Assembly: GCA_963718515.1 (NCBI GenBank)
Contig: OY970354.1
Span: forward strand, 366,942-430,941
Direction: 5' to 3'
Length of the DNA: 64,000 nt
Source of the DNA: an uncultured bacterium
GTDB taxonomy: Bacteria > Patescibacteriota > Minisyncoccia > UBA6257 > 2-01-FULL-56-20
In this document: piece after piece, positions 1,608-20,390 of the stretch
Layout of the letters: each line of letters opens with the position of its first letter
Numbering within the stretch: position 1 is the first letter of the stretch
Notes under the pieces: model-generated
Databases searched by the model: none
What the model saw: only the letters and a program-made list of their open reading frames with translations
Told to the model about the DNA's origin: nothing
Made by a program: the position numbers and the translations under genes

Positions 1608-2639
1608 ATGGCAAACGTGCGCGTCGCGATCAACGGGTTTGGCAGGATCGGCCGGTTGTTCTTCCGCCAGGCATTCGGGCTCCCTAATATAGAGATTGTC
1701 GCATTGAACGACCTCGGCGACGTGGAGAATCTCGCATATCTATTAAAGTACGACACGGTGTACGGCCGTTTTGATAAAGAAATAAAAACGGATGCCGCGA
1801 ACGGCAAGTTGATCGTCGATGGGAAGGAGATCAATTTCTTGCAAGTGAAGGATCCGACCCAACTTCCTTGGAAAGCCATGAATATCGATCTCGTTATCGA
1901 GTCGACAGGGCTCTTTGATGAATACGCAAAATCAAAAGTGCATTTGGCGGCGGGCGCAAAGCGCGTTGTGATCACGGCGCCCGCAAAGGATGCCGACGGT
2001 GCGGATGGCCAGACAGTGCTGATGGGGGTGAACGAAGATAATTTAAAGTTGTCGACGATCACGTCGAATGGTTCATGCACCACAAACTCCGCATCGCCGG
2101 TCATCCAGATCTTGAGCGAGAATCCGGGCATCATAAAAGCGTCGCTTTCGACCGTGCACGCATACACGGCGACGCAGGCGCTTGTAGATGGCCCGATCCG
2201 CGGCGGCCACGATTTCCGCAAGGGCCGAGCGGCGGCGATGAACACCGTTCCCGAAACGACCGGCGCCGCGATCAGTGTCGCGCGCGCGATCCCGTCGCTC
2301 GCGGGAAAGTTCGACGGGCTTTCATTCCGCGTGCCGAATATCACCGGTTCCATCTCTGACATCACATTCCTCGCCAAGCGCGCGACGACCGTGGAAGAGA
2401 TCGCGCAGATTTTGACCGACGCGGCGAACTCACCGCGCTGGCAGGGGATACTGCAAGTGACGCGCGATCAGATCGTTTCATCCGACATCATTGGGCAAAA
2501 AGTAGGCGCGACCGTCCCGCTTGATCTCATTAAGGTAATCGACGGCGATCTCGTGAAAGTGCTCTCGTGGTACGACAACGAAGCGGGGTACGTATCGACC
2601 CTGATAAAACACGTTGAAAAGGTAGCAGAACTTCTTTAA
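1608..2639 (+). CDS. gapA: glyceraldehyde-3-phosphate dehydrogenase (type I)
   Basis: 343 aa. NGFGRIGR Rossmann motif and catalytic SCTTN motif. Full-length GAPDH. Confidence 0.95.
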   Translation: MANVRVAINGFGRIGRLFFRQAFGLPNIEIVALNDLGDVENLAYLLKYDTVYGRFDKEIKTDAANGKLIVDGKEINFLQVKDPTQLPWKAMNIDLVIESTGLFDEYAKSKVHLAAGAKRVVITAPAKDADGADGQTVLMGVNEDNLKLSTITSNGSCTTNSASPVIQILSENPGIIKASLSTVHAYTATQALVDGPIRGGHDFRKGRAAAMNTVPETTGAAISVARAIPSLAGKFDGLSFRVPNITGSISDITFLAKRATTVEEIAQILTDAANSPRWQGILQVTRDQIVSSDIIGQKVGATVPLDLIKVIDGDLVKVLSWYDNEAGYVSTLIKHVEKVAELL

Positions 2640-2665
2640 ATAAGTCATTAGGTTAAGAGTAAAGG

Positions 2666-2690
2666 CCTCGCTTGCGCGGGGTCTTTTTTT
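2666..2690 (+). terminator. rho-independent terminator after gapA
   Basis: GC-rich hairpin cctcgcttgcgcgggg followed by a T7 run. Confidence 0.5.
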
Positions 2691-2890
2691 GATTTCCCGT
2701 TCTCGTCTCAAAGGTCGGCAAATTAAAAACGCCCTTATTGAGATGCAAAAGGAAAGAAAACGTTTTTCCCGTTGGGAGATTTGCGTACGGTGTGAGCGCC
2801 GGTGTCGCAAGATCTACCATTTCGGTCGGGAAATGGAATCTACTGCGATCCTTTGCAGAGCATGCTCGCGGGCATTAGAACCAAAAAATC

Positions 2891-3193
2891 ATGGAAGGAT
2901 TTATTCCTCTCGCCGAAGTGGCGAGCGCGGCTACGCGATCCGTCGAGCTGCGGCGGCTCACTGATCGACAGACACGCGTATATCAAGCGTTTGTGGAGGA
3001 GATCGGTAATATTCGCGTGCCGAGGATCGTTGAACTCCTCCAAATAGCCAATAAGCTGAAAATCAGCTATAAAGCCGCCCGGTGTGCCAAAAATACTCTC
3101 GTCAAAAAAGGATTTTTGAAGCAATGGACAACTACCTTTCGGGATAAGGATGGCCTTTTCCGCAAGAGTACCTATTACCGGATCGAGTTTTAG
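2891..3193 (+). CDS. winged-helix/HTH DNA-binding protein (regulator or excisionase-like)
   Basis: 100-aa ORF with HTH-like segment LLQIANKLKISYKAARCAKNTLVKKGFL. Followed by a strong terminator and a long palindrome. Confidence 0.45.
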   Translation: MEGFIPLAEVASAATRSVELRRLTDRQTRVYQAFVEEIGNIRVPRIVELLQIANKLKISYKAARCAKNTLVKKGFLKQWTTTFRDKDGLFRKSTYYRIEF

Positions 3194-3206
3194 GGAATCA
3201 TGAAAA

Positions 3207-3241
3207 ATCCGCCGGACTGAAAACCCGGCGGTTTTTCTTTT
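3207..3241 (+). terminator. rho-independent terminator
   Basis: tccgccgg…ccggcgg hairpin followed by tttttcttttt. Confidence 0.7.
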
Positions 3242-3250
3242 TCTTAGATA

Positions 3251-3296
3251 GGGGCAAATCTATTAATTAATTTCTTAATTAATTAAGATTTGCCCC
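3251..3296. repeat. 46-bp near-perfect palindrome (GGGGCAAATC…TTAATTAATT…GATTTGCCCC)
   Basis: Perfect 10-bp outer inverted arms flanking a TTAATTAA-rich core. Candidate operator, origin or recombination site. Confidence 0.6.
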
Positions 3297-3380
3297 CTCC
3301 GTGTTTTTTCTTAGGTTTCTCCGTCATTTCTGTTGTTTCGCTTATATGTATATTTGCCCTTTTTCGATTTCATTTCAAAT

Positions 3381-3427
3381 GCCAAAGTGTTGATAACTTT
3401 TATTTCGGCAGTTATCCACACTTTGGC
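3381..3427. repeat. 17-bp inverted repeat (gccaaagtgttgataac / gttatccacactttggc) with 13-bp spacer
   Basis: One mismatch between arms. The left arm is repeated directly at 16182..16199. Confidence 0.6.
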
Positions 3428-3631
3428 CCCGCGGAAACTTTTTCGCTGTTGTAGAAAAATATAAACATGGTCATCTGCTCAATCTGTTCTCATAGCGAGT
3501 GGTGCGACGGCGGCGATCGGTGTGATTGCCAATGCCACGACGTCGATCTCGAAGATGATGGATTCTACGAGGAAGACTACGACGATGAGGGCGAAGGAAT
3601 TGACGGCAACGAAGGGGATTAATAAACAACC

Positions 3632-3781
3632 ATGAACCCAATACTCATACTTCTCGGTTTCATTGCTTTGTATATCAGCGCTTCCCGGCTTGCTTCCGTA
3701 AGGCGGCCGCCGCAGATGGGATTCATCATGCCGAAGAAGACCCTGTGGCAAAGGATAAAAAGAATCTGGCGCAACCGATGA
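3632..3781 (+). CDS. small hydrophobic peptide (49 aa), putative membrane protein
   Basis: ATG-initiated short ORF MNPILILLGFIALYIS…, co-directional with the downstream cluster. Overlaps minus-strand ORF 3479..3751, so uncertain. Confidence 0.25.
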   Translation: MNPILILLGFIALYISASRLASVRRPPQMGFIMPKKTLWQRIKRIWRNR

Positions 3782-3902
3782 ACTGGGATATTTTCAAAGG
3801 ATTCTGGCTGGGTGTTATCTCACTTCTATTCGTCGAATTTTCAATCGTATGGTCCGTGGATGAAACCAAAGGTAACGACGATAACGATACATTAAAACCA
3901 AC

Positions 3903-4058
3903 ATGACATTTCAAGATTTCATCGGCACGATCATTTTCGCTTTTATGTTCAACTTCTGCATCACGGTCATGCTCGATGGATTGCTCGGATTGTTTTACCG
4001 GCAGATCGGGGCCAAATACATTAAAGTCGTGATGAAAAATGACGGATTGAATTATTAA
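3903..4058 (+). CDS. small hydrophobic peptide (51 aa)
   Basis: MTFQDFIGTIIFAFMFNFCITVMLDGLLGLF…, a TM-like peptide. Overlaps minus-strand ORF 3726..4061. Confidence 0.25.
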   Translation: MTFQDFIGTIIFAFMFNFCITVMLDGLLGLFYRQIGAKYIKVVMKNDGLNY

Positions 4059-4059
4059 C

Positions 4060-4185
4060 ATGACGCCCCTCGATACAATTTTCTACCAGTGGTCAGAAGT
4101 GATCAATCCCTCATGGATTCTCGTGCTGTTCGCCCTTACCACGTTGCACACCTTCCTATTTACCTTCATCGAAAATTGGCTCTAA
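4060..4185 (+). CDS. small hydrophobic peptide (41 aa)
   Basis: MTPLDTIFYQWSEVINPSWILVLFALTTLHTFLF… with a predicted TM segment. Confidence 0.25.
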   Translation: MTPLDTIFYQWSEVINPSWILVLFALTTLHTFLFTFIENWL

Positions 4186-4295
4186 AGATAACATAAAGAT
4201 TCGATAAAGAAGTTATAAAGAAAAGTTAAATAAATTTTAAAGATGTTATTCCGGAAAAATAAAGGTCGAATAAATATTAACCAAACACCACAACC

Positions 4296-4565
4296 ATGGT
4301 CAAAAAGATTTCTCTTTGGCTTTCGGGCGCTGGCGCTGCGATCGTTGGCCTCATTGGGGCTGCGGCCGCTCACGCGCAGTCCATCCCGGCAGGCGCTTTG
4401 GCGGTCCCCACCTCTACGGTTCAGGATCTCCTAGCGTCGGTCAGTAACGTGTTCACCGATCCGGGTATTCTCGGCATGGTGATTATCGCTGCTGCACTGC
4501 CGATCGTCTTCTGGTTCGCTCGCCAAGTCATTGGCTTGCTGCCGAAGTCGCGCGCAGCCCGCTAG
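4296..4565 (+). CDS. small secreted protein with C-terminal TM anchor (pilin-like topology)
   Basis: 89 aa. Signal peptide ending AHAQ and C-terminal hydrophobic segment. C-terminal module DLLASVSNVFTDPGIL…FWFARQVIGLL is shared with 4851..5462. Confidence 0.5.
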   Translation: MVKKISLWLSGAGAAIVGLIGAAAAHAQSIPAGALAVPTSTVQDLLASVSNVFTDPGILGMVIIAAALPIVFWFARQVIGLLPKSRAAR

Positions 4566-4623
4566 CATCTCACCCCATCTCACGGGCGAGGGGATGTCGT
4601 GAGAACGTCCCTTCACCCGTGAT

Positions 4624-4854
4624 ATGAAAAAGAAAATTATCACAATTTCGTTTGTTGCCTTGATTCTGATCGCCGCGGAATTTTGGTGGGCCGTGTTGAC
4701 GTTGCCTTGGCCACTAGTCGTCGCCATATATGCGTACATGGCTCATGTCCTCGTTTTGGGGTTCTTGGAAATCGCAGTGGTTGCCCTTGTTATTCCGCTC
4801 GTATTTTATCTCGTCCACGGGATCATCAATCTCGTCCGCTCAAAAAAGAAATGA
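4624..4854 (+). CDS. small integral membrane protein (2 TM)
   Basis: 76 aa, very hydrophobic. Its stop overlaps the next start codon (ATGA). Confidence 0.45.
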   Translation: MKKKIITISFVALILIAAEFWWAVLTLPWPLVVAIYAYMAHVLVLGFLEIAVVALVIPLVFYLVHGIINLVRSKKK

Positions 4855-5462
4855 AGAAAATTATATACACAATTTTATTACTCCTTCCCATTCTGCTTTC
4901 TGCGGCACCAGCTTTTGCTGCCTTATCAACAACCCCCGCCAGTTCGGATAATTTAAACTCATTGCAGATTACCGTTACCGGCAATGATAATCGCCGCGTC
5001 ATTCTCGTTGACTATGCAGGCATCATCGTGGGCGATACGGATCAAAGCCACGGCTATCCTTACCCCGATACCGACGGAACATACAGCCCTTCGCAATTAG
5101 GCTTTACGTCAAGTGGTTATGGAACCTACACAATTATCAGTACAGTTCAATCCGAAAATGGACATGGCAGCTGCACACCGGGTAATACCATCGTGAGCTG
5201 TATCGGCATGATTAATTACGGAAGCGGCTATTACAACGAAAGCACGTTTAATCTTTTTGCTCCTCCGGCACCGGTAACAATCAATTCGGGCGTGCTTGTG
5301 TTGCCGTCATCTGATACCCACGATCTTTTGGCAAGCATCACGAATGTGATGGACGGTGCAGGACTGCTTGAGATCCTTGTTCTCGCAGCAGGAGTGCCAT
5401 TAGCCTTTTGGTTTATGAGAGAGATCATCGCCTTAAACTACCAGAATAAAAAACAAAAATGA
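4851..5462 (+). CDS. secreted protein with conserved pilin-like C-terminal module
   Basis: ATG at 4851 gives signal peptide MKKIIYTILLLLPILLSAAPAFA. C-terminal DLLASITNVMDGAGLLEILVLAAGVPLAFWFMREIIAL is paralogous to 4296..4565. Confidence 0.5.
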   Translation: MKKIIYTILLLLPILLSAAPAFAALSTTPASSDNLNSLQITVTGNDNRRVILVDYAGIIVGDTDQSHGYPYPDTDGTYSPSQLGFTSSGYGTYTIISTVQSENGHGSCTPGNTIVSCIGMINYGSGYYNESTFNLFAPPAPVTINSGVLVLPSSDTHDLLASITNVMDGAGLLEILVLAAGVPLAFWFMREIIALNYQNKKQK

Positions 5463-5701
5463 AAAAGATTTTTATAACCATTTCAATATTGGGTATCACC
5501 GCATTCATGCCCCTTTTGGCGTTCGCGCAGGTTGCTACAGACAGCATTCAGCTGCCGTCCGATTTCACCGCTGATGTTTTGACGCAATCAACTGCTTTAC
5601 TAACCAATCTCGAAGGCTACATGAGCCTCATCGTGGGCGTACTTCTTGCGCTCGTCGTCGTTGAATTTGTGATCGGCGCAATCAGACATCGCGGGCAATA
5701 A
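5459..5701 (+). CDS. small secreted protein with C-terminal TM anchor (paralog family)
   Basis: 80 aa with signal peptide and C-terminal TM. ATGA overlap with the upstream gene. Confidence 0.5.
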   Translation: MKKIFITISILGITAFMPLLAFAQVATDSIQLPSDFTADVLTQSTALLTNLEGYMSLIVGVLLALVVVEFVIGAIRHRGQ

Positions 5702-5709
5702 CATGAGCC

Positions 5710-7038
5710 ATGAAAAAATATATTCTCATAGCGTTAATGGTAGTGGCGGGATCGCTTGTACTCTCCTCGCACTCTGCCTTTGCGTTCAGTCTTGAAGAAC
5801 CCCAAAGCTTCGTCCAACCGGATACGATATTTCTCGATCAGAATGGCAATTTAGAAATTCAGTGGCAAAAAATTCAATTAGGGTTCGGGGGATATGATCT
5901 GCCGGGCGGTATCATGGTTTCGATCAATGGGACAAGCACTGATCCGGAATTGAGCTACAACGGCCCGTATGCCGGATGGTCGGCGGGCGGCCATGTGCTT
6001 ACGCATGGCGGCGTCGGCACCGGTGGACCGTGCGCGCCCGGATTCGGAGGGAATTACAGCACTGCAAGCGAAGCGCCTTATGGCAACACCTACGGGCCAA
6101 TAAGCACGGTATGGAACGCGGATACCAATTCTTTTGTGAGCACGGTAGGCATGACGGAAGCCACGCCGATTTATCTCACGTTTTTTAACTACAACGGATA
6201 TACGTGCGGCATCAGCGAATCAGAACCAACCGACGGCAGCACCTACTGGCAGGTATTTTATTTAAATTCCGTTGAAGAACCCGTACAGCCGGAATTTTTG
6301 CAACCATTCGACGGCGCAGTGATTGGCCAATTCCCAAACTGGGATTTTTATTTATCAAACAACTCCACAAGTTCACAAAGTGGCGTCGTAACTGTCCACT
6401 TCGGCACCGGTCCCGGCAATCTTACACTCACCGCTTCGACGACTTATACCGATCTTCCCGCGGGAACCGATACCGAACTCACGATTCCCGAAACATATCA
6501 ATTCACCACCCCGCAGGGGCCGAGTTCAAGCATATGGTATGCCGACATTGAAGTGGCGAACACCTCAACCGATTTTGATATTACGGGATCAGTCATCAGT
6601 TTCACCTTCGAGAATAATGCGCCTACCGTCGCGCCATTTCCAAATGGCATGTTTAATTTCGAGGGAGGGGAAACATCATCCACGGCATCCGATTGCGATT
6701 ACACGACTTCAAGTTTTCTCGATGATCCGGTTGGCAATCTCGAAGAAGCGGGATGCAACATGTTTATCCCGAATTCTTCGGAGCAGGCAGATCTCTACGA
6801 TTCATTTCACGGCACATGGGGCAACCTCTCGACAAAGATTCCCTTTGGCTACGCTGCGATCATCACAACAGCATTCACTAATTTTCAAGAGGGAACGAAC
6901 GCCAGCACGCTGATGAGCACGACGACCTACGCTGCGCTTTCATCGGTGCTTGATCCATTAAAGACTGGCGTATCATTTTTACTTATTCTCATGCTGGGAT
7001 TTTGGATTTTCAAATTTATTCAGCACATAACGCTATGA
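5710..7038 (+). CDS. large secreted protein with C-terminal TM anchor
   Basis: 442 aa. Signal peptide ...SHSAFA, S/T/G/N-rich body and C-terminal hydrophobic helix. Confidence 0.55.
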   Translation: MKKYILIALMVVAGSLVLSSHSAFAFSLEEPQSFVQPDTIFLDQNGNLEIQWQKIQLGFGGYDLPGGIMVSINGTSTDPELSYNGPYAGWSAGGHVLTHGGVGTGGPCAPGFGGNYSTASEAPYGNTYGPISTVWNADTNSFVSTVGMTEATPIYLTFFNYNGYTCGISESEPTDGSTYWQVFYLNSVEEPVQPEFLQPFDGAVIGQFPNWDFYLSNNSTSSQSGVVTVHFGTGPGNLTLTASTTYTDLPAGTDTELTIPETYQFTTPQGPSSSIWYADIEVANTSTDFDITGSVISFTFENNAPTVAPFPNGMFNFEGGETSSTASDCDYTTSSFLDDPVGNLEEAGCNMFIPNSSEQADLYDSFHGTWGNLSTKIPFGYAAIITTAFTNFQEGTNASTLMSTTTYAALSSVLDPLKTGVSFLLILMLGFWIFKFIQHITL

Positions 7039-7298
7039 TCGTCTATTGGATATTAAAAATATTTGTATACCTCTTGAGCCTCATCACGGCGCCGCTCTTG
7101 TTATTGCCTACAGCATCCTTGTCGGTGGATCTCACCGGCACGCTCACCCAAGCGGGCAATTATCTGGCGCTATTCGACATATTTTTGCCCGTAGGAACGC
7201 TTTTAACGGTCTTTGGCATCATTGTCTCGATCGAGGGAGGATATTTCAGCTACAAGGTCGTAAAGTGGATCTATAACAAGATACCGGGAGTAACCTAA
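7035..7298 (+). CDS. small integral membrane protein
   Basis: ATG at 7035 overlaps the upstream stop (ATGA). Three predicted TM helices. Confidence 0.4.
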   Translation: MIVYWILKIFVYLLSLITAPLLLLPTASLSVDLTGTLTQAGNYLALFDIFLPVGTLLTVFGIIVSIEGGYFSYKVVKWIYNKIPGVT

Positions 7299-7343
7299 AT
7301 TAGGGAAAGTTGTCTTTTGGCTTTTTGGCTGTAAAATATACTC

Positions 7344-8183
7344 ATGGCGAATGAACTAACACCTTCGAGCCCGCACAAGGACTTTGAGAGCATTAAGAAA
7401 ATTGACGAAAACGGGATTGAGTATTGGGAAGCTCGTGAATTAATGCCGGTTTTGGGTTATGAAAACTGGCAAAAAGCAGAGGAGGTTATTGCTAGGGCTG
7501 CCAAAGCCTGTATTAACAGCGGTCAGGATGTGGATAACCATTTTAACCAGACGGTTAAAATGGTGAATATTGGCTCAAACACAGTAAGAGAAGTAAGAAA
7601 TTATAAGCTCGATAGGTACGCTTGTTACCTTATCGCTCAAAACGGCGATCCGAAAAAACACGAAATAGCGACGGCTCAAACATACTTTGCAATTCAGACG
7701 CGACGGCAGGAGATTTTTGAACAATTGTCAGATAGCGAAAAAAGACTATTTATCCGTGGCGAAGTATCTGATCGCAACAAAAAACTTTTTAAGACAGCGC
7801 GACGAGCTGGAGTCAGTAAATTTGGTTTGTTTAACGACGCAGGCTATAAAGGTCTTTATGGTGTACCCTTAGCAGATGTTGAAAAAAAGAAAGGGATAAA
7901 AAAGGGAGAGCTACTTGATCATGCTGGCGCAACGGAGCTTGCTGCTAACTTGTTTCGTATAACACAAACCGATGAGAAAATAGCTAAGGATAAAATATAT
8001 GGGCAAGAAGCGGCTTCGAGAGCTCACTTCATGGTGGGCGGTAAAGTTAGACAAACCATTAAAGACATTGGTGGTGTTCTGCCGGAGGAATTGTCTACTG
8101 AAAAAAGTATCAAAGAAGTAAAAAAGGAAATTAAGCTTCTCAAAAAAGAGGAAAATAAAAAGATTAAGGGATTTAAAAAATAA
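7344..8183 (+). CDS. dinD: DNA-damage-inducible protein D-like (Bro-N domain) protein
   Basis: N-terminal 120 aa align with E. coli DinD/Bro-N family (…ENGIEYWEARELMPVLGYENWQKAEEVI…YACYLIAQNGDPKK…AQTYFAIQTRRQE). Lysine-rich C-terminus. Confidence 0.7.
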   Translation: MANELTPSSPHKDFESIKKIDENGIEYWEARELMPVLGYENWQKAEEVIARAAKACINSGQDVDNHFNQTVKMVNIGSNTVREVRNYKLDRYACYLIAQNGDPKKHEIATAQTYFAIQTRRQEIFEQLSDSEKRLFIRGEVSDRNKKLFKTARRAGVSKFGLFNDAGYKGLYGVPLADVEKKKGIKKGELLDHAGATELAANLFRITQTDEKIAKDKIYGQEAASRAHFMVGGKVRQTIKDIGGVLPEELSTEKSIKEVKKEIKLLKKEENKKIKGFKK

Positions 8184-8228
8184 GGCGATTTTTTTGCAGC
8201 TGCCGACTGATCCCTGTAAGCTGTAGAT

Positions 8229-9433
8229 CCCCATCTTCCCGTCCGAATGGCGTCATTGCGGTTGGTCATAAAAATCAACTCTAAAAAATGAAAACGCTTT
8301 CTTACGAGGAATATCAGGAAAAAGTATCGAACCTTAAAAATATGGACGACGTGGCGAGCTTCGTAAAGGAGCTCGTTGCTCCGGCCGTTGAAATAATCAC
8401 CGAAGAACGGCCGCCCGCGGCGACCTTCACAAAGCACAAGAGGATTAAAACCAACCTTCCGATCCCGAAGAGATATGAGATCGCGGAAAATGACGTGGAG
8501 CAGAACATCATCGCGCTCTATGCGCGGGGACTTACCACGCGCGACATTACAAGCTATCTCAAAGAGCATCACGGGATTGAGGTATCTCAAGCGACCATTT
8601 CCTCGATCACGGACAAAATGTATCCGCTCATCAAGGAATGGCAAACGCGCCCGCTATCGTCCGTGTATCCCTTCATTTACCTCGACGGCTTGCACTTTAA
8701 GGTGCGAGAATCGGGCAAGATCGTGAACCGGTGTGCCTATATCGTCCTCGGCGTGAACTCGCAGGGCTATAAGGAAGTGCTGGGTATCTGGATAGGGGAA
8801 ACCGAAGGGGCGAAGTTCTGGATGCACGTCTTGAACGAGATCAAAAACCGTGGCGTGGAAGATATTTTGATCGCTTGCATTGACGGCCTCAAAGGATTCT
8901 CCGAAGCCATCAATGCCATCTATCCGGAAGCGCAGGTGCAGCAGTGCATCGTGCATCAGATCAGGCACACGGTTAAATTCTTGCCCCACAAGGACCGCGA
9001 GGCGTTTTGTAATGACCTCAAGGCCGTCTACGGCGCGCTGAATGAAGAAACGGGGCGAGACGCATTGCAGAAGCTCAAGGCGAAGTGGCCACGCTACCAG
9101 CCGTACCTTCGTTCATGGGAAGAAAAATGGAACGAGCTCATGCCGTTCTTTGAGTATCCCGAAGCGATCAGAAAGAGTATCTACACGACAAACGCGATCG
9201 AGAGCTTGAATCATCAGTTTCGCAAAGTTACGAAGACCACGACTGTCTTTCCGCATGATGAATCGCTGGAGAAGTTACTGTGGCTCGCGCAAGACGACAT
9301 TGCGAAGCGGTGGATACACACTGTCCGCCGGTGGGGAGAGATCGTCATGCAATTGATGATCCTTTTCCCCGGCAAAATAGAACTCTAATAAAACTAACAG
9401 CTAATCGCACTGGCGCCTTCGGATAAGATGGGA
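8229..9433. mobile_element. IS256-family insertion sequence
   Basis: Mutator-type transposase flanked by imperfect ~30-bp terminal inverted repeats (cccatcttcccgtccgaatggcg… / …cgccagtgcg…ccgaaggataagatggg reverse-complemented). Confidence 0.6.
8288..9388 (+). CDS. IS256-family (mutator-type) transposase
   Basis: 366 aa with the conserved C-terminal YTTNAIESLNHQFRK motif and the DDE region typical of IS256. Confidence 0.85.
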   Translation: MKTLSYEEYQEKVSNLKNMDDVASFVKELVAPAVEIITEERPPAATFTKHKRIKTNLPIPKRYEIAENDVEQNIIALYARGLTTRDITSYLKEHHGIEVSQATISSITDKMYPLIKEWQTRPLSSVYPFIYLDGLHFKVRESGKIVNRCAYIVLGVNSQGYKEVLGIWIGETEGAKFWMHVLNEIKNRGVEDILIACIDGLKGFSEAINAIYPEAQVQQCIVHQIRHTVKFLPHKDREAFCNDLKAVYGALNEETGRDALQKLKAKWPRYQPYLRSWEEKWNELMPFFEYPEAIRKSIYTTNAIESLNHQFRKVTKTTTVFPHDESLEKLLWLAQDDIAKRWIHTVRRWGEIVMQLMILFPGKIEL

Positions 9434-9795
9434 AAATCTGGGGGGCTTCCCAAATTCCCCCAAAGGTGCTAATTTTTAAGTACAAATTAATATGTAATAG
9501 GTAGCCTAAACCCCGCGAGTAATCGCGTGGCATGGCAACAGAACCGATGAGAGACAAAAAGCTCCTAGTCAGAGCACTCTCATCGGTCATATCTCGAAAG
9601 GGATATGGGTGTCGCAAGGCATCGCTGGCTGGGAGCTTTTTGCGTCAAGCCGGCACGACTAACCTATTGCACTTAGGTCGAAAAGATTTAAAATCAAAGG
9701 TAAGGAGATGCCAGCACCCCGCGGCATTCTATAATATGTTTATAATTTTTGGCACGCGTAGTATCTTGAAAAACTTAGGCATAGTTTTCAAGAAT

Positions 9796-10224
9796 ATGTG
9801 TAACAATTGCCACAACGAAAAGTATTGGGTCTTGACCCGTACCACGAGGTGGTTTACGTTATTTTTTATACCTATTTTTCCAACCTCATCTAGGTATTCG
9901 TTGAGCTGTCCTGTCTGCAAATACGGGATAAAACTAAATCAGGAACAGATTGAGAAATATAAACCCATCGCGGAGGCGAACACACTTTTGGCAAATGGCG
10001 CAATCACTCAAGAAGAATATCAAGAACGCCTTAATCTTCCGAAAACGGTTCAAAGCGATGTTTCGGTCCCTGAATCAGTTGCTGCTCCTAGTCTTGTGTC
10101 TGCTGCCGTTTCTACTCAAGCGGCGGTTCGTGCTCAAACCCTAGCTGCGTATTGCAAGGAATGTGGAACACGATCGGACGGAGGAAAATTCTGTGGTCAA
10201 TGCGGAAATTTAATGACTGCCTAA
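9796..10224 (+). CDS. zinc-ribbon domain protein
   Basis: N-terminal CNNCHN…CPVCKYG and C-terminal CKECG…CGQCG zinc ribbons. An upstream in-frame ATG at 9735 is an alternative start. Confidence 0.45.
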   Translation: MCNNCHNEKYWVLTRTTRWFTLFFIPIFPTSSRYSLSCPVCKYGIKLNQEQIEKYKPIAEANTLLANGAITQEEYQERLNLPKTVQSDVSVPESVAAPSLVSAAVSTQAAVRAQTLAAYCKECGTRSDGGKFCGQCGNLMTA

Positions 10225-10231
10225 TAAACCC

Positions 10232-10426
10232 ATGACCATCATTTATGATTTTCTGATTAACTATGGCTATCCGATCCTTTGTGCGGGATCATTTTTAGCC
10301 GGTCTTTATTATTGGGACATTCGACCCGATTTTCGGAAAGAGACGATGTTTTGTCCTAGCTGCGGTACCCTCATTAAAAAGGGCAGTAAATTTTGTGCAA
10401 AATGTGGCCAAAAAGTTGAAATGTAA
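10232..10426 (+). CDS. small zinc-ribbon protein
   Basis: Contains CPSCG…CAKCG. May initiate at the internal ATG at 10346, giving MFCPSCG…. Confidence 0.4.
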   Translation: MTIIYDFLINYGYPILCAGSFLAGLYYWDIRPDFRKETMFCPSCGTLIKKGSKFCAKCGQKVEM

Positions 10427-10431
10427 CTTTA

Positions 10432-12297: not shown

Positions 12298-12308
12298 AAG
12301 CTAAAAAT

Positions 12309-12782: not shown

Positions 12783-12819
12783 AGATGCAGATTTCGATCT
12801 AGCCTCGCCGCTTTCAATA

Positions 12820-13299: not shown

Positions 13300-13308
13300 C
13301 GTTTTCTT

Positions 13309-13533: not shown

Positions 13534-13609
13534 TCTGATATGCTATATTCTATCACATCAGCCCGTTTTGGCTAAACTAGCCAGTTTCGGCTCATGGAGA
13601 CCCACCTAA

Positions 13610-14488: not shown

Positions 14489-14493
14489 TCCCG

Positions 14494-15840
14494 ATGCTCT
14501 CCATCTCATCGCCAGCGAAGAAAAAAGGTATCGCTTACTATCGTCATTCGGCCGAAGATAAGCAGGAGAATTCGGTTCCGATCCAAAGACAGCATACCCA
14601 AAAATTGACTGGTGAGAATAATGTTGAGCTTCTTCACGAGGAAGCTGATGAAGGCAAGTCGGGACTTCTCGCTGCTCGACCGGGATTCGAGAGGCTTTTT
14701 AAGGATTGGATCTTGAACCCTGATGCCCCATATTTTGAGTATGTATTTGTCTATGACGTTTCCCGGTGGGGTAGATTTCAAGATCCTGATGAGGCGGGAT
14801 ATTATGAGTTTCTTTGTAAACAAAAAGGTAAGAAAGTTATTTATGTTTCGCGGGGGTTTCCAAAAGAAGAACAACCCCAGCTCATTTCTCATCTTCAAAC
14901 ATCCATTGAGCGCTATATGGCGGCGGAGTACAGTCGGCAGTTGAGCGACAAGGTGTTTTATGGATGCGTGAAAGTTTCGGAGCAGGGATATTCGGCCGGT
15001 GGTACTTCGTGCTATGGGATGACGCGCCTTCTTTTGGATGCCAATAAGAAACCGATCAAAGCGCTCAAGCGTGGGGAATGGAAATCATTATCGAACGAAC
15101 GCGTTACGTTCGCACCGGCAAATGATGAAACCACGGAAGCGGTAAAAGAAATGTTTGTCCTGCTCGTGAAGAAATGGCGATCGCCGAAAGAGATCGCAGA
15201 AATTTTAAATGAGAGGCAGATTCCATCGGCGACTGGTGGATTATGGAATAGCCAAAAAGTAATTCATGTGCTTACGAATGAGACCTATACCGGCTCGCGC
15301 ATTTATAACAAGACATGGGGGCGCTTGAAGCAAAAGATGCGGCAAAATCCTCGGAATGAATGGGTGATCAAACCGAACGCCTTTGATGCCATTGTCGAGA
15401 GCGATGTTTTCCGCGAAGCGCAGGAACATTTATATTGGCTTCTCGATTCAAAATGGAAGCGGGGGATCTATGCGACTAATCGCGTGAGAAAGTTAATCCG
15501 CGAGGATCTCCGCGGCATACTCTCGAAACGAGGTATCGCATATGATGACATCGAAGAAACATTGAATAAAATCCCGATCGTTTTTGGTGTTCGTTTTTAT
15601 CACAATTCAATTCCTCATTGGTGCTTCTTGATTGAAGAAACGGCTCGCAACTATGATTTTGTCATTGGAGTAAGTGTCGCTATGGATCAGCGAGAACCAA
15701 TCGACAGATTTTTTCTTATTCCGACGAACGATTTTAATGGCGTAAACTTTAACGTTTTTTCCGAAACGGATGATTGCTATGGGAAATATAAAATAGAGGA
15801 AAGTAAGGTTGAAGAAAAAGTGCTTTCGTTTATTGCCTAA
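14494..15840 (+). CDS. large serine recombinase
   Basis: N-terminal resolvase motif YYRHSAEDKQENSVPIQRQ…FVYDVSRWGR plus recombinase domain (…LWNSQKVIHVLTNETYTGSRIYNK). Confidence 0.8.
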   Translation: MLSISSPAKKKGIAYYRHSAEDKQENSVPIQRQHTQKLTGENNVELLHEEADEGKSGLLAARPGFERLFKDWILNPDAPYFEYVFVYDVSRWGRFQDPDEAGYYEFLCKQKGKKVIYVSRGFPKEEQPQLISHLQTSIERYMAAEYSRQLSDKVFYGCVKVSEQGYSAGGTSCYGMTRLLLDANKKPIKALKRGEWKSLSNERVTFAPANDETTEAVKEMFVLLVKKWRSPKEIAEILNERQIPSATGGLWNSQKVIHVLTNETYTGSRIYNKTWGRLKQKMRQNPRNEWVIKPNAFDAIVESDVFREAQEHLYWLLDSKWKRGIYATNRVRKLIREDLRGILSKRGIAYDDIEETLNKIPIVFGVRFYHNSIPHWCFLIEETARNYDFVIGVSVAMDQREPIDRFFLIPTNDFNGVNFNVFSETDDCYGKYKIEESKVEEKVLSFIA

Positions 15841-16126
15841 TTTTAACGCCTTTCACGCTGAACCAGAAAAAGGCATAGAGGACTGTCAACAGGATAATCA
15901 CAAGAAATACAGAGATCACGATCTCGCCGTAAGTGAAGCCATTATAATAGCTATTATCGGTCGAAGTGCTTTCTCCGTAGAGAGTAAGGCATGTTGAGCT
16001 ACCGAATTGGAAGGTCCCGCTATCCGTAGAAGTAGCGGGATTTAAATTTCCTCCGGTCAACACCATCGGATTGCTATAGCTGCATGTCGTGGTTGCGTTG
16101 GTCATTTTTATATTAGTGGCGTCCAA
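15830..16126 (-). CDS. small secreted/membrane protein
   Basis: 98 aa, T/S-rich with a C-terminal TM helix. Confidence 0.3.
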   Translation of the reverse strand: MDATNIKMTNATTTCSYSNPMVLTGGNLNPATSTDSGTFQFGSSTCLTLYGESTSTDNSYYNGFTYGEIVISVFLVIILLTVLYAFFWFSVKGVKIRQ

Positions 16127-16181
16127 CCGTCTGACGGTCCCACGCCTTCATTTTAACTCCCGTAGTCAAGGTCGATCAAAA

Positions 16182-16199
16182 GCCAAAGTGTTGATAACT
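16182..16199. repeat. 18-bp direct repeat copy (gccaaagtgttgataact) of the site at 3381
   Basis: Exact 18/18 match to 3381..3398. No inverted partner here. Confidence 0.7.
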
Positions 16200-16443: not shown

Positions 16444-17532
16444 TTGGTGGGCTTTGTGTTTATGAAATTAAGCGAAGCAATCAAAAATTTTATTTCGTTA
16501 AGAGAGGCGAAAGGACCACGCGCACGAAAAACCGCCGCGCGGTATTTAACCGTGCTCCGCCCTTTCTGCCTGTGTATGCAAGATCCGGAAGTTGAAGATC
16601 TCGACATCGAGCATGTGCTTTGGTACCTGAATGAGATGGAACGATTGGGATGGAAACCAAACGGAAGAAATCTCGCAGCGCTCGGATTAAGAAAATTTTT
16701 CGAGTACTGCAACCTGCGTGGCTATCCGGTTTTTAACGAGCAGCTCATTCCGGTGCCGGAGCGTGCGACGAATATCCCGCGGGTGGCAGATGAGCAATCA
16801 TTTGAAAAAATTATTGAGCAACTTCCCGCAGATTCAAACAGGCCGAACCATATTCGTAACCGGGCGCTCGTGATGCTCTTGTGGGATACTGGCGCACGTA
16901 ATGGTGAACTATGTTCTTTGAACACAGCTGATTTGCAATTTAGTAAAGACAATTCAGGATCGGCTATCATCAAAACCGAAAAGTCTCGTGGTCGTCGGCC
17001 GATTCGACAAATTTTCTGGACACCGAAAACCGGTAAGGCGTTAAAGTTGTGGATCAAAAAGAAAGCTGAATTAGAAAAGCAATTTACGTTTGCTGATCCA
17101 GAAGCATTGTTTGTAACCATTCTCAAATGTCCGCAAGCTCCTTTGCGTGGTCGCCGGATGGTGAACACGAGTGTTTGCGAAGTGATGCGTGTTTTGTCTA
17201 ATCAAGCCGGATTGGCGACCGTGATCAATGCGCACGGCGCTCGACATGCAATGGGCCGCGACGCAGCAAAGGCATTACGAAGCGATACAGCCGTTGCAAA
17301 TATTCTTGGCCACTCAAACGTTGAGAGCTCGTACATTTATACGATGCTTTGGGGTGATGATCTGAAAGAGGAATGGCAAGAGGTTATGAAAAAACGCGGA
17401 GTGCCAATGGGTCGCCCGCCGGATACCTCATCGAGTTTTCCTAAACCTCGTCAATCACGATCGGACACGTTGCCGGGCAGATTGCGACCGCACCCAGTCG
17501 CTACATCTCGGCATGGCAGGATTATGAAATAA
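16444..17532 (+). CDS. int: tyrosine recombinase / phage integrase
   Basis: Conserved R…HxxR…Y motifs (…WDTGARNGELCSL…, HGARHAMG, LGHSNVESSYIYT). True start may be the ATG at 16462 (MKLSEAIK…). Confidence 0.85.
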   Translation: MVGFVFMKLSEAIKNFISLREAKGPRARKTAARYLTVLRPFCLCMQDPEVEDLDIEHVLWYLNEMERLGWKPNGRNLAALGLRKFFEYCNLRGYPVFNEQLIPVPERATNIPRVADEQSFEKIIEQLPADSNRPNHIRNRALVMLLWDTGARNGELCSLNTADLQFSKDNSGSAIIKTEKSRGRRPIRQIFWTPKTGKALKLWIKKKAELEKQFTFADPEALFVTILKCPQAPLRGRRMVNTSVCEVMRVLSNQAGLATVINAHGARHAMGRDAAKALRSDTAVANILGHSNVESSYIYTMLWGDDLKEEWQEVMKKRGVPMGRPPDTSSSFPKPRQSRSDTLPGRLRPHPVATSRHGRIMK

Positions 17533-17690
17533 CAGAATTTTTATATTGTGCATAAAATAACCGCGTTTTTTGCCGGGCGTGTTATAGTTGTATGGACGAG
17601 CAAGAAGGCACTTGCTCTTAATAATAATGACTAAATTTAATGAGGCAGGAAAGGTCGCAAGGGCTACTTTTCTCACCTGCTACAACAACG

Positions 17691-17749
17691 AATTGGGGTA
17701 TGTGTCGACGCTCATCAAGCACGTGGAAAAAGTTGCGGAGCTTTTGTAA
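17691..17749 (+). pseudogene. duplicated 3'-terminal fragment of gapA (att-site remnant)
   Basis: Encodes …CYNNELGYVSTLIKHVEKVAELL*, matching the GapA C-terminus. About 75% nt identity to 2581..2639 with differences mostly at codon third positions. Confidence 0.6.
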
Positions 17750-18930: not shown

Positions 18931-18936
18931 AAATTA

Positions 18937-20385: not shown

Positions 20386-20390
20386 TAACA

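What the first reader, a model, noticed from the sequence alone, without database searches (positions are those of the whole stretch)
3632..7298. Cluster of translationally coupled small membrane proteins and pilin-like secreted paralogues on the element
Nine co-directional ORFs include three proteins (4296..4565, 4851..5462, 5459..5701) with signal peptides and a shared C-terminal module (DLLAS.[ST]NV..D.G[IL]L……P[IL].FWF.R..I.L). That module ends in a hydrophobic anchor, a topology reminiscent of conjugative (VirB2/TrbC-type) or Flp-type pilins.

Four consecutive gene junctions use ATGA start/stop overlaps (4851, 5459, 7035). A 442-aa secreted protein with a C-terminal anchor sits among them. 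No ATPase or secretin genes are present. The function of this cargo on a mobile element is unclear. It could be a surface filament or adhesion module.
Basis: partly seen in the sequence, partly recalled or inferred. Interest (0 to 1): 0.6.

Follow-up and report, generated by a model that had tools for sequence, protein, structure and literature searches.

The report
Membrane-protein core of a tiny CPR mobile element
The cluster is real and is not cargo: on its own, the same set of tiny membrane proteins makes up the whole genome of 4.2-5.6 kb circular DNA elements that carry no replication or motor gene, so it is probably the transmission or particle-forming apparatus of an undescribed group of minimal elements of ultrasmall (CPR) bacteria.

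Summary
The ORFs exist and are under purifying selection. All but one are conserved in more than 20 related loci. Five junctions are ATGA overlaps. The shared C-terminal module is real for 4296-4565 and 4851-5462 (hhalign 99.6%). Its third carrier is 4624-4854, not 5459-5701, which only shares the topology.

The cluster lies in a ~15.2 kb tyrosine-integrase element inserted into the 3' end of the GAPDH gene of a Paceibacteria-like genome.

The key result comes from relatives. The same gene set (m98-like, tiny TM proteins, p8, p6, p9, p10, p11) forms the entire genome of closed circles of 4.2-5.6 kb. Circularity rests on terminal overlaps and on rotated assemblies from independent samples. These circles have no Rep, ATPase, integrase or capsid gene. 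Five of seven carry 4-6 perfect DnaA boxes in their only non-coding region.

The module is therefore the element's core. It is most likely a membrane-assembled particle or transfer apparatus, with p10 as a receptor-binding protein, and replication borrowed from host DnaA.

No VirB2/TrbC, Flp, holin, inovirus or any other family matched in Pfam, PHROGs, NCBIfam, PADLOC, PDB, INPHARED, PLSDB or IMG/VR.

The gene pattern resembles an inovirus structural block, but membership fails. I found no description of this family in the literature searches I ran.

The parts
2571..2639 (+). Left junction (attL region): the last 23 codons of the GAPDH gene. A second copy lies at 17681-17749.
   Evidence: 53 of 69 nt are identical. 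Both copies encode Y[DN]NE[AL]GYVSTLIKHVEKVAELL*.
2689..2964 (+). o91: a basic CxxC...CxxC zinc-ribbon protein. Its start is uncertain and it overlaps the next gene.
   Evidence: Conserved at 41-78% in 8 loci. No Pfam hit.
2891..3193 (+). w100: a 100-aa basic protein, probably a winged-helix regulator of the integrated form. It is absent from the circles.
   Evidence: 37-77% identity in 9 loci. Only a weak HTH-type NCBIfam hit. A hairpin with a T run follows at 3204-3236.
3381..3427 (.). Inverted pair of DnaA-box-like 9-mers (TGTTGATAA / TTATCCACA) about 45 nt upstream of the operon's first ATG.
   Evidence: The pair is conserved in 8 of 10 integrated relatives (A7).
3467..3622 (+). cys51: a Cys-rich small protein with an acidic tail.
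   Evidence: Conserved at 43-70% in 11 further loci.
3632..3781 (+). s49: one TM helix and a basic tail.
3778..3906 (+). s42: one TM helix and an acidic tail. ATGA overlap with s49.
3903..4058 (+). s51: one TM helix. ATGA overlap with s42. Orthologues are present in the circles.
   Evidence: 43-90% identity in 14 loci. L031 51 aa and L034 41 aa.
4060..4185 (+). s41: one TM helix. Orthologues are present in the circles.
   Evidence: 66-83% identity in 13 loci. L031 and L034.
4296..4565 (+). p6: signal peptide, about 30-aa ectodomain, TM helix and basic tail. It is the most conserved protein of the module and has its own 110-nt upstream spacer.
   Evidence: 74-93% identity to the integrated relatives, 40% to the L031 circle orthologue. 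Orthologous to the signal-peptide-less 60-aa proteins of the circles (hhalign 88.7%).
4624..4854 (+). p7: a window-specific extra copy of the p6/p8 module.
   Evidence: Absent from relatives. hhalign 93-96.5% to p6/p8.
4851..5462 (+). p8: signal peptide, about 140-aa domain, then the p6-type C-terminal module. ATGA overlap with p7.
   Evidence: hhalign 99.6% to p6. Found in 11 of the 20 loci of at least 5 kb that were clustered, and in the circles.
5459..5701 (+). p9: signal peptide, TM helix and basic tail. A separate family from p6. ATGA overlap with p8.
   Evidence: 65-78% identity to the integrated relatives, 32% to the L031 circle orthologue. Orthologous to the 50-aa circle proteins (96.8%). 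Not related to p6 (5%).
5710..7038 (+). p10: a 442-aa acidic secreted protein. It has a variable N-terminal part, an Ig-like beta-sandwich, and a conserved Cys-pair plus four-helix C-domain ending in a TM helix.
   Evidence: AF2 pLDDT 82 for residues 190-442.
7035..7298 (+). p11: an 87-aa protein with 2-3 TM helices and a ...YK.[VI][KR]W.Y.K[IV]PG[IV] C-terminus. ATGA overlap with p10.
   Evidence: 151 clusters at E<=0.01. Alignment A4.
15830..16126 (-). m98: a C-terminally anchored Thr/Ser-rich protein. In the circles it is the first gene after the non-coding region, on the same strand as the rest.
   Evidence: 74-85% identity to the integrated relatives, 38% to the L031 circle orthologue. 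Circle orthologues.
16182..16199 (.). Third copy of the 18-nt DnaA-box-like motif, about 60 nt upstream of m98.
   Evidence: Conserved in alignment A8.
16444..17532 (+). Tyrosine integrase.
   Evidence: PF00589, E 5e-20. Orthologues lie at the same end of related elements.
17681..17749 (+). Right junction (attR region): the second copy of the GAPDH 3' end.

Best explanation
What it is. The ORFs at 3467-7298, together with m98 at 15830-16126, are the conserved core of a mobile element of about 15.2 kb (about 2571-17749). The element is integrated by a tyrosine recombinase into the 3' end of the GAPDH gene of a Paceibacteria-type (CPR) genome.

Why it is the core. The same gene set makes up the complete coding content of covalently closed 4.2-5.6 kb circles. 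That set is an m98-like anchored protein, 2-4 tiny one-TM proteins, a p8-like protein, p6-like and p9-like small one-TM proteins with an acidic outside and a basic inside, the p10 secreted and anchored protein, and p11.

Proposed mechanism (inferred):
1. The proteins are inserted into the host membrane by Sec/YidC.
2. There they form the particle or transfer structure that carries the element's DNA to a new cell without lysis.
3. p6 and p9, and their fusions p8 and p7, are the abundant coat or envelope subunits.
4. p10 is the receptor-binding and entry protein. Its N-terminal part evolves fast. Its conserved C-terminal helical domain docks in the membrane or particle together with p11.
5. The tiny TM proteins and m98 are minor or assembly components.
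6. The element has no Rep. The circles appear to recruit host DnaA at a cluster of 4-6 perfect DnaA boxes. The integrated forms keep a DnaA-box-like inverted pair in front of the operon and one box in front of m98.
7. The integrated lineage added an integrase, regulators, usually a C5 methylase, and variable defence cargo.

Shown here: gene reality, conservation, paralogy, integration site, circularity, gene content of the circles, DnaA-box arrays, and the absence of all known hallmark genes.

Inferred: particle formation, the role assigned to each protein, and DnaA-dependent replication. Whether the particle is filamentous or an enveloped vesicle cannot be told from sequence.

Confidence. The figure of 0.55 is for the particle or transfer-apparatus reading. 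The narrower claim that this block is the core of a mobile-element family with autonomous circular members stands at about 0.9.
For: Gene reality:
- tblastn conservation of every small ORF in 9-10 loci.
- Differences at codon positions 1:2:3 of 335:154:689.

Core versus cargo:
- The order [regulators] cys51-s49-s42-s51-s41-p6-(p8)-p9-p10-p11 ... m98-integrase is constant.
- The stretch between p11 and m98 varies: RM systems, Shedu, LexA-methylases, reverse transcriptase, toxin-antitoxin, Dsb, and here Bro-N, IS256 and Zn-ribbon genes.

Integration and mobility:
- The GAPDH 3' end is duplicated at both ends of the island.
- Other copies sit next to rplK (7 loci).
- Two diverged elements lie in tandem in L001.

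Circles:
- L035, L036 and L037 are 4502 bp, each with a 30-nt terminal overlap. They are exact rotations of one 4472-bp sequence from three sequencing runs.
- L034 (55-nt overlap) and three 4374-bp contigs show the gene at different offsets. The lengths fit one 4233-bp circle if the 4374-bp contigs carry a 141-nt overlap. That overlap is inferred, because no DNA was available for those contigs.
- L038, L039 and L040 have terminal overlaps of 47, 121 and 127 nt.
- L031 is 1.94 perfect copies of a 4495-bp unit.
- Among distant p11 relatives, the longest contig is almost always 3.6-4.9 kb and never exceeds 8.7 kb.

Gene content of the circles:
- They hold only the module.
- The longest opposite-strand ORF in L036 is 103 aa, so there is no room for a Rep or an ATPase.

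DnaA boxes:
- There are 4-6 perfect TTATCCACA boxes at 11-12 bp spacing in the single non-coding region of 5 of 7 circles. About 0.03 perfect boxes per genome are expected by chance (my estimate, 2 x 4,400 / 4^9).
- The conserved inverted pair in the integrated forms is shown.

p10:
- The N-terminal part is 36-40% identical where the C-terminal 85 aa are 55-85% identical.
- The family has 828 clusters at 50% identity, with the conserved part at profile positions 196-452.
- The model shows an Ig-like sandwich plus a helical membrane domain.

Small coat-like proteins:
- p6 is 93% identical between elements whose p10 is 40% identical.
- Orthologues exist with and without a signal peptide.
Against: - No particle, virome or CRISPR-spacer evidence was available.
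- IMG/VR holds no relative. Its length cut-offs and dependence on hallmark genes could explain this absence.
- No structural or sequence similarity to any virion protein was found. Foldseek against PDB and BFVD gives only generic Ig-like hits with TM <= 0.31. PDB profile searches were empty.
- Known non-lytic membrane-derived viruses and inoviruses all encode an ATPase and/or a Rep. This element encodes neither.
- CPR cells have a peptidoglycan wall, which makes simple budding awkward.
- Two circles (L031, L034) lack DnaA boxes.
- In the integrated forms the motif extends beyond the DnaA box. It may instead be an operator for the element's own regulator, so the DnaA link is not general.
- p6 contains several prolines, including one in the TM helix. 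This is unusual for a helical filament subunit.
Confidence: 0.55

Rival explanations
1. Plasmid rather than virus. The circles are DnaA-dependent mini-plasmids. Their membrane proteins mediate transfer through specialised membrane vesicles, or through direct cell-cell contact or fusion, with p10 acting as adhesin or fusogen. No virion in the strict sense is formed. This is analogous to the vesicle-spread haloarchaeal plasmid pR1SE (analogy from my own knowledge).
For: - DnaA-box arrays suggest double-stranded, theta-type, host-driven replication.
- There is no capsid, Rep or packaging ATPase.
- All proteins are membrane proteins.
- No relative was called viral in IMG/VR.
Against: - No relative is present in PLSDB.
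- The pattern is the one expected of virion proteins: a highly conserved small subunit (p6), a fast-evolving N-terminal part of p10, and a conserved anchor.
- With sequence alone this reading differs from the best explanation mainly in name.
Confidence: 0.2
2. The small secreted paralogues are pilins (VirB2/TrbC-like or Flp-like) that build a surface filament or adhesion organelle. The host's own chromosomal T4SS or type IV pilus machinery assembles it, which would explain why the element carries no ATPase.
For: - Patescibacteria carry chromosomal T4SS without relaxases, and arrays of 2-11 divergent VirB2-like pilin genes (PMC12102498).
- The element encodes several small signal-peptide proteins with hydrophobic C-termini and an adhesin-like Ig-domain protein.
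Against: - No hit to PF04956, PF18895 or any pilin model at E<=1.
- There is one TM helix after the signal peptide, not the VirB2 two-helix hairpin.
- The signal peptides are AxA-type, and they are absent altogether in circle orthologues.
- There are no T4SS or Tad genes in the element.
- A pilus gene set does not explain why these genes alone constitute an autonomous circular replicon.
Confidence: 0.1
3. Reduced or satellite filamentous phage (Tubulavirales). The block equals gVII/gIX/gVIII/gIII/gVI. The Zot-type assembly ATPase and the Rep are supplied by a helper phage or were lost.
For: - The order and sizes of the genes match.
- The coat-like charge pattern matches, with and without a signal peptide (as in Ff pVIII versus Pf3, from my own knowledge).
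- There is a pIII-like protein followed by a coupled pVI-like protein.
- Tandem integration occurs.
- The genome is small and circular.
Against: - pI/Zot and Rep are absent from all seven circles and from all integrated copies examined.
- This absence is conserved across a family of at least 828 p10 clusters, so it is not decay.
- There is no HMM, profile or fold match to inovirus proteins.
- Known satellite filamentous phages lack structural genes rather than replication genes (my own knowledge).
- DnaA-box arrays point to host-driven replication.
Confidence: 0.1
4. Host-directed function without transmission. The small membrane proteins act as holin-like, toxin, immunity or superinfection-exclusion factors, or they remodel the host envelope for the element's benefit.
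For: Small TM proteins on prophages often have such roles (general knowledge). The integrated elements do carry defence cargo.
Against: - No holin, toxin or defence model hit.
- The ten-gene block is the whole genome of the circles.
- p10 has the evolutionary pattern of a receptor-binding protein.
Confidence: 0.05

Closest known systems
Structural gene block of filamentous phages (Tubulavirales/Inoviridae: gVII-gIX-gVIII-gIII-gVI of Ff; Pf3 coat)
   Same: - A run of tiny hydrophobic proteins.
- Then 45-60-aa (mature) one-TM proteins with an acidic outside and a basic inside, found with a signal peptide in some lineages and without one in others.
- Then a protein of about 400 aa with a signal peptide, a variable N-terminal part, a conserved C-terminal part and a C-terminal anchor.
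- Then a translationally coupled small multi-TM protein.
- A small circular genome, chromosomal integration and tandem copies.
   Different: - No Zot/pI ATPase, RCR Rep or ssDNA-binding protein in any member.
- No sequence, profile or fold similarity.
- DnaA-box arrays in the non-coding region.
- Several prolines in p6.
Enveloped pleomorphic viruses without a capsid (Plasmaviridae: Acholeplasma phage L2; Pleolipoviridae)
   Same: - The genome encodes mainly membrane proteins.
- A spike-like protein with a signal peptide and a C-terminal anchor is followed by small TM proteins.
- The lifestyle is non-lytic and temperate or integrating.
- There is no capsid protein.
   Different: - Those genomes are 7-17 kb and encode an NTPase and/or a Rep.
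- Their hosts lack a peptidoglycan wall.
- No homology was detected (tblastn against INPHARED empty).
- The comparison rests on my own knowledge of those families.
Clavaviridae (Aeropyrum pernix bacilliform virus 1)
   Same: - A circular genome of about 5 kb made of ORFans.
- No recognisable replication or packaging enzyme.
- The virion is built from a small hydrophobic alpha-helical protein (my own knowledge).
   Different: - Its host is an archaeal hyperthermophile.
- There is no sequence relation. The only link is a weak Foldseek hit to one APBV1 protein (TM about 0.2), which is not meaningful.
VirB2-like pilin arrays of the chromosomal T4SS of Patescibacteria (PMC12102498)
   Same: - Arrays of small, divergent, secreted hydrophobic paralogues in CPR genomes.
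- A possible role in cell-cell contact.
   Different: - p6, p7, p8 and p9 do not match PF04956 or PF18895.
- They have one TM helix after the signal peptide.
- They are not next to virB4.
- They belong to an autonomous mobile element.
oriC-type (DnaA-only) minichromosomes / oriC plasmids
   Same: - A cluster of consensus DnaA boxes at helical-repeat spacing lies next to AT-rich DNA.
- It is the only candidate origin of a replicon that has no initiator gene.
   Different: - To my knowledge these are laboratory constructs derived from chromosomal origins.
- Here the array sits on natural 4-5 kb circles.
- Function as an origin is untested, and 2 of 7 circles lack the boxes.

Membership tests
Inoviridae / Tubulavirales | Zot/pI-type morphogenesis ATPase (the family's one conserved hallmark) | tested here: not met
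   No P-loop or Zot domain in the window element, in integrated relatives or in the circles. The circles have no ORF large enough besides p10 and p8.
Inoviridae / Tubulavirales | Replication initiator (RCR Rep or equivalent) and ssDNA-binding protein | tested here: not met
   None found by Pfam or PHROGs. DnaA-box arrays are present instead.
Inoviridae / Tubulavirales | Major coat protein recognisable by family models or profile similarity | tested here: not met
   No Pfam or PHROG coat hit at E<0.1; the best is phrog_34573 at E 0.69.
Inoviridae / Tubulavirales | Structural-block architecture (tiny TM proteins, coat, pIII-like, pVI-like) | tested here: met
   The order, sizes and topology match qualitatively. 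This is resemblance only.
Inoviridae / Tubulavirales | ssDNA genome in a filamentous virion | not testable with these tools
   Needs particle isolation and strand-specific library analysis.
VirB2/TrbC conjugative pilin | Match to PF04956 / PF18895 profiles | tested here: not met
   No hit at E<=1 for p6, p7, p8 or p9 or for the circle orthologues.
VirB2/TrbC conjugative pilin | Long signal peptide followed by two TM helices, with neighbouring virB4/virB6 genes | tested here: not met
   There is one TM helix after the signal peptide. No T4SS domains in the element.
Flp / type IV pilin | Class III (prepilin) signal peptide, with Tad/Pil ATPase and prepilin peptidase genes | tested here: not met
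   p6 and p9 have AxA-type cleavage sites and a C-terminal, not N-terminal, hydrophobic helix. There are no such genes in the element. The only N_methyl hit is an unrelated cargo protein in L007.
Holin | Match to holin models and adjacency to an endolysin | tested here: not met
   Only Hol_Tox at E 0.52 for one 42-aa circle protein. No endolysin in the core.
Integrative element with tyrosine recombinase | Integrase at one end, and duplication of the target gene's end at both junctions | tested here: met
   PF00589 integrase at 16444-17532. The GAPDH 3' end is duplicated at 2571-2639 and 17681-17749.
DnaA-dependent (oriC-type) replicon | Cluster of consensus DnaA boxes next to AT-rich DNA, and no element-encoded initiator | tested here: inconclusive
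   Met in 5 of 7 circles, with 4-6 perfect boxes, and not in L031 or L034. The window has only an inverted pair (one perfect box, one with 1 mismatch) plus a third copy. Function is untested.

The most novel reading that the evidence does not exclude
These are a previously unrecognised class of minimal mobile genetic elements of CPR bacteria, whether virus or vesicle-spread plasmid. Their 4.2-5.6 kb circular genomes encode nothing but about ten membrane or secreted proteins. They have no replication initiator, motor ATPase, capsid or integrase. They replicate by capturing host DnaA at an array of consensus DnaA boxes. The window holds an integrase-bearing, cargo-expanded descendant.
Probability: 0.5. 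Interest if true: 0.9.

Novelty: categorically new. Interest (0 to 1): 0.8.

Why it matters
- If the reading holds, this is one of the smallest self-propagating DNA elements of bacteria, and it shares no hallmark gene with any virus or plasmid group.
- Hallmark-based virus and plasmid finders would therefore miss it. This fits the absence of any relative from IMG/VR, INPHARED and PLSDB, although at least 828 p10 clusters at 50% identity exist in public data.
- It would show how little an element needs to move between cells: membrane proteins plus a host-initiator landing pad.
- It would give natural DnaA-only replicons and natural integration vectors (into the gap and rplK 3' ends) for CPR bacteria, which currently lack genetic tools.
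- It would identify a large family of rapidly diversifying surface proteins (p10) that may mark receptors on CPR cells.
- The integrated forms act as carriers of defence islands in these reduced genomes.

Tried and rejected
- **Family libraries.** Pfam, PHROGs, NCBIfam and PADLOC scans of all cluster proteins and of the circle proteins gave nothing significant.
- **PDB sequence profiles.** Searches with p10 and p11 gave nothing.
- **First structure model.** AF2 of full-length p10 with 19 sequences had pLDDT 57. Foldseek on it against BFVD gave generic beta-sandwich hits.
- **Second structure model.** Residues 190-442 with 113 sequences gave pLDDT 82. Foldseek against PDB and BFVD still returned only Ig-like folds (PapD chaperones, nanobodies, fusexin domain III) at TM <= 0.31. 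I do not read these hits as homology.
- **Curated phage and plasmid records.** tblastn of p10 against INPHARED and PLSDB gave no match.
- **IMG/VR.** Three scans found no relative.
- **A wasted search.** The third homologue search used a 135-aa C-domain profile and returned only 7 short fragments.
- **Junction repeats.** A search for exact direct repeats at the element ends found only an 8-mer. The ends were found instead through the duplicated GAPDH C-terminus.
- **Decayed inovirus after IS256 insertion.** I considered and rejected this, because the lack of ATPase and Rep is shared by all relatives, including closed circles.
- **Misassembled chromosomal oriC fragments.** I considered and rejected this for the circles. 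The terminal overlaps, the identical rotations in independent runs and the gene content exclude it.
- **Rfam.** There is no Rfam family in the module or its non-coding regions. The only real hit is a LOOT RNA in the cargo.
- **Literature.** Five full-text searches found no description of such elements.

Full report
**1. The observation**

Positions 3467-7298 hold a tight run of + strand ORFs:
- cys51, 3467-3622
- s49, 3632-3781
- s42, 3778-3906
- s51, 3903-4058
- s41, 4060-4185
- p6, 4296-4565
- p7, 4624-4854
- p8, 4851-5462
- p9, 5459-5701
- p10, 5710-7038
- p11, 7035-7298

Five junctions are ATGA overlaps: 3778, 3903, 4851, 5459 and 7035. Two more genes are 1 and 8 nt apart.

Hydropathy gives the following topologies:
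- One TM helix in each of s49, s42, s51 and s41.
- A signal-like N-terminal segment plus one C-terminal TM helix in p6, p8, p9 and p10.
- Two to three TM helices in p11.

The ORFs are genes and not chance. tblastn finds every one except p7 in 9-10 related loci at 40-93% amino-acid identity. Nucleotide differences against orthologues fall 335:154:689 on codon positions 1, 2 and 3.

Profile-profile comparison corrects the paralogy claim:
- p6 and the C-terminus of p8 are homologous (99.6%, E 6e-24).
- p7 is a third, window-specific copy (93-96.5%).
- p9 is not detectably related (5%) and shares only the topology.

**2. Surroundings in the window**

The cluster lies in a low-GC island (0.44-0.49 against about 0.55). 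The island sits between the GAPDH gene (1608-2639) and rpiB (17787-18245) of a genome with CPR traits.

The last 23 codons of GAPDH occur twice, at 2571-2639 and at 17681-17749. 53 of 69 nt are identical and the peptides are nearly the same. A tyrosine integrase sits at 16444-17532. This is therefore an element of about 15.2 kb integrated into the 3' end of gap.

Besides the cluster, the element holds:
- Two small regulators (2689-2964 and 2891-3193).
- A Bro-N protein, an IS256-family transposase and a LOOT RNA.
- Zn-ribbon proteins, one of them with a trypsin-like domain.
- A TnsA-like nuclease, a ParB-like protein and a large serine recombinase.
- A C-terminally anchored 98-aa protein on the minus strand (m98, 15830-16126).

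No ATPase, secretin, capsid or replication protein is present.

**3. Related integrated elements**

p10 has 29 clusters of relatives at 90% identity. All are unnamed. Some lie on CPR contigs of up to 829 kb. Named records are Candidatus Paceibacterota and Parcubacteria.

The contexts show one constant order: regulators, cys51, s49, s42, s51, s41, p6, (p8), p9, p10, p11, then usually a C5 DNA methylase, a variable stretch, m98 on the opposite strand, and the integrase.

The variable stretch carries the following:
- AlwI and MvaI restriction systems.
- Shedu.
- LexA-fused methylases.
- A reverse transcriptase.
- AbiEii and HepT/MNT.
- An OLD-like ATPase.
- Dsb/thioredoxin genes and a P-type ATPase.

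The membrane-protein block is thus the conserved core, and the rest is cargo. The window's copy has lost the methylase position to Bro-N and IS256.

Insertion sites are downstream of rplK in seven loci, and next to gap in the window and in L009. L001 carries two diverged elements in tandem.

Evolutionary rates are uneven. p6 is 93% identical between elements whose p10 is only 40% identical. Within p10, the C-terminal 85 residues stay 55-85% identical while the N-terminal part diverges or is replaced.

**4. The circles**

A profile of p11 finds 151 clusters. Close relatives sit on long CPR contigs. The 78 distant clusters (at most 50% identity) behave differently:
- They never sit on a contig longer than 8.7 kb.
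- 35 of them have a longest contig of 3.6-4.95 kb.

These are closed circles, as the following show:
- L035, L036 and L037 come from three runs. Each is 4502 bp with a 30-nt terminal overlap, and they are exact rotations of one 4472-bp sequence.
- L034 is 4288 bp with a 55-nt overlap. Three 4374-bp contigs from other samples show the gene at different offsets. The lengths fit one 4233-bp circle if the 4374-bp contigs carry a 141-nt overlap. That overlap is inferred, because no DNA was available for them.
- L038, L039 and L040 have terminal overlaps of 47, 121 and 127 nt.
- L031 is 1.94 perfect copies of a 4495-bp unit.

Their genes are all on one strand, apart from a doubtful 100-aa gene call on the opposite strand of L035-L037 that overlaps two conserved + strand 50-aa ORFs. 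The genes are:
- An m98-like anchored protein.
- Two to four tiny TM proteins, including s51 and s41 orthologues.
- A p8-like protein.
- One or two p6-like proteins and a p9-like protein.
- A p10-like protein of 347-478 aa.
- Sometimes a small soluble or Zn-ribbon protein.
- p11.

The genes are followed by a single non-coding region of about 620-750 bp.

In the low-GC circles the p6 and p9 orthologues have no signal peptide. They are still recognisably orthologous (hhalign 88.7% and 96.8%).

Nothing else is encoded. The longest opposite-strand ORF in L036 is 103 aa. No protein matches Pfam or PHROGs.

The family is large. An exhaustive profile search with p10 finds 828 clusters at 50% identity at E<=1e-3, and 287 at E<=1e-10. 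The conserved part is profile positions 196-452.

**5. Replication clue**

The non-coding region of five of the seven circles holds 4-6 perfect consensus DnaA boxes (TTATCCACA). They share one orientation, lie 11-12 bp apart, and sit next to AT-rich DNA upstream of the m98-like gene:
- L030: six boxes.
- L036, L038, L039 and L040: four boxes each.

About 0.03 perfect boxes per genome are expected by chance (my estimate, 2 x 4,400 / 4^9).

In the window, an inverted pair (TGTTGATAA ... TTATCCACA, 3381-3427) lies about 45 nt before the first ATG of the operon. A third copy (16182-16199) lies before m98. Both positions are conserved in relatives.

I infer that the circles use host DnaA as their initiator, which would explain the missing Rep. 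The caveats are these:
- L031 and L034 have no such boxes.
- The motif in the integrated forms is longer than a DnaA box and could be an operator for the element's own regulator.
- Nothing was tested functionally.

**6. What the proteins look like**

With a 113-sequence alignment, AF2 models p10 residues 190-442 at pLDDT 82. The model has three parts:
- An Ig-like beta-sandwich.
- A linker bearing a conserved Cys pair.
- Four helices, the last a long TM helix.

Foldseek against PDB and BFVD returns only generic Ig-like domains with TM <= 0.31, and no phage pIII. PDB sequence-profile searches with p10 and p11 are empty.

tblastn against INPHARED and PLSDB is empty, and so are the IMG/VR scans.

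**7. Explanation**

A gene set that is the sole content of an autonomous circle, and the only constant part of its integrated relatives, must provide what the element needs beyond host functions. That means maintenance and spread.

All of its products are membrane or secreted proteins. One small subunit is extremely conserved. The large protein has a fast-evolving outer part and a conserved anchor that is coupled to a small polytopic partner. This is the pattern of membrane-assembled, non-lytic virus particles, with a coat or envelope subunit, a receptor-binding protein and tip or assembly proteins.

I therefore propose that the block encodes the particle or transfer apparatus. Sec/YidC would insert the proteins and host DnaA would replicate the DNA. 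I cannot tell a filament from an enveloped vesicle or rod.

I put the core-of-a-mobile-element conclusion at about 0.9. I put the particle-apparatus reading at about 0.55.

**8. Rivals**

- A vesicle- or contact-spread plasmid (0.2). It differs from the best explanation mainly in whether a regular virion exists.
It is weakened by failed pilin tests and by the autonomous circles. It draws some plausibility from the VirB2-like arrays of CPR chromosomes (PMC12102498).
- A reduced or satellite inovirus (0.1). It fits the gene pattern. It fails on the family-wide absence of Zot and Rep and on the lack of any homology.
- A host-directed holin, toxin or exclusion role (0.05). It does not explain the circles.

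**9. Comparison with known systems and novelty**

The module works like the structural block of an inovirus, or like the envelope block of plasmaviruses and pleolipoviruses. It meets none of the defining features of these families that I could test.

No library, curated phage or plasmid collection, or literature search contained it. I rate it categorically new. The caveat is that absence from the searchable literature is not proof, and the mechanism is inferred.

**10. Verdict**

- The pilin label is unsupported.
- The cargo label is wrong.
- The region is the core of an integrated member of a widespread, apparently undescribed family of minimal CPR elements.
- Interest: 0.8.

Noticed in passing
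window 9503-9623 (+): A full-length LOOT RNA (Rfam RF03000; 91.4 bits against a gathering score of 46.4). It lies just downstream of the IS256-family transposase (8288-9388) and overlaps the start of the mechanical ORF 9532-10224. That ORF's N-terminal part is therefore probably not coding.
   Followed up: no
window 16316-16364 (+); L001 18148-18200, L007, L008, L010, L014, L021: An almost invariant segment of about 50 nt upstream of the integrase gene. It can fold into a three-way junction with two GNRA-type loops (CCCATTG-TCCCGNAAGGG-...GCCGAAAGGC...-CAATGGG). It shows no covariation and matches no Rfam family. It could be an RNA element or a recombinase arm site.
   Followed up: partly
L030 3486-3552; L036 2200-2284; L038 158-231; L039 404-488; L040 1400-1444: Arrays of 4-6 perfect consensus DnaA boxes at 11-12 bp spacing in the only non-coding region of Rep-less circles of 4.3-5.6 kb.
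   Followed up: yes
L001 1-19300: Two diverged copies of the element sit head-to-tail at one site. Each has its own integrase (6663-7607 and 18309-19253) and different defence cargo.
   Followed up: partly
ENA ERZ1426829, 7322-bp contig (no DNA held): Two different but related units of about 3.7 kb of the module lie head-to-tail on one contig. This is either a heterodimer or co-integrate of two circles, or an assembly chimera of strain variants.
   Followed up: no
L010 11957-13627; L014 13838-15697: Cargo proteins that fuse a complete LexA (DNA-binding domain plus S24 peptidase) to a DNA methyltransferase. They sit next to AlwI or MvaI/BcnI restriction endonuclease genes. This suggests restriction-modification systems wired to an SOS-type, self-cleaving switch.
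   Followed up: no
window 12820-15840: A TnsA-like endonuclease, a ParB-like protein and a large serine recombinase sit together inside the element's cargo region. They may be a second, nested mobile element.
   Followed up: no
window 10432-12297 and 12309-12782: A 621-aa protein combines an N-terminal Zn-ribbon, a TM helix, a trypsin-like domain and a long array of Cys-rich EGF-like repeats. Next to it is a Zn-ribbon membrane protein with an internal duplication of about 180 nt (12428-12592 versus 12605-12772). L001's cargo also holds Zn-ribbon and trypsin-like proteins.
   Followed up: no
window 3251-3296: An AT-rich palindrome (GGGGCAAATCT ... AGATTTGCCCC flanking TTAATTAA repeats) lies between the regulator gene and the operon. 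A nearby conserved box GCTTATATGTATATTTGCCC is shared by relatives and may be a promoter or operator.
   Followed up: partly
L036 3251-4031; L034 3208-3856; L030 174-711, versus window 4296-4565 and 5459-5701: Orthologous small coat-like proteins carry a cleavable-looking signal peptide in the high-GC (integrated) lineage. In the low-GC circles they have none. This implies a switch of membrane-insertion route within one family.
   Followed up: partly
window 18937-19797 and 20340-21398: Transketolase is encoded as two separate N- and C-terminal genes, with a membrane-protein ORF (19846-20385) between them. This is consistent with a CPR-type host.
   Followed up: no
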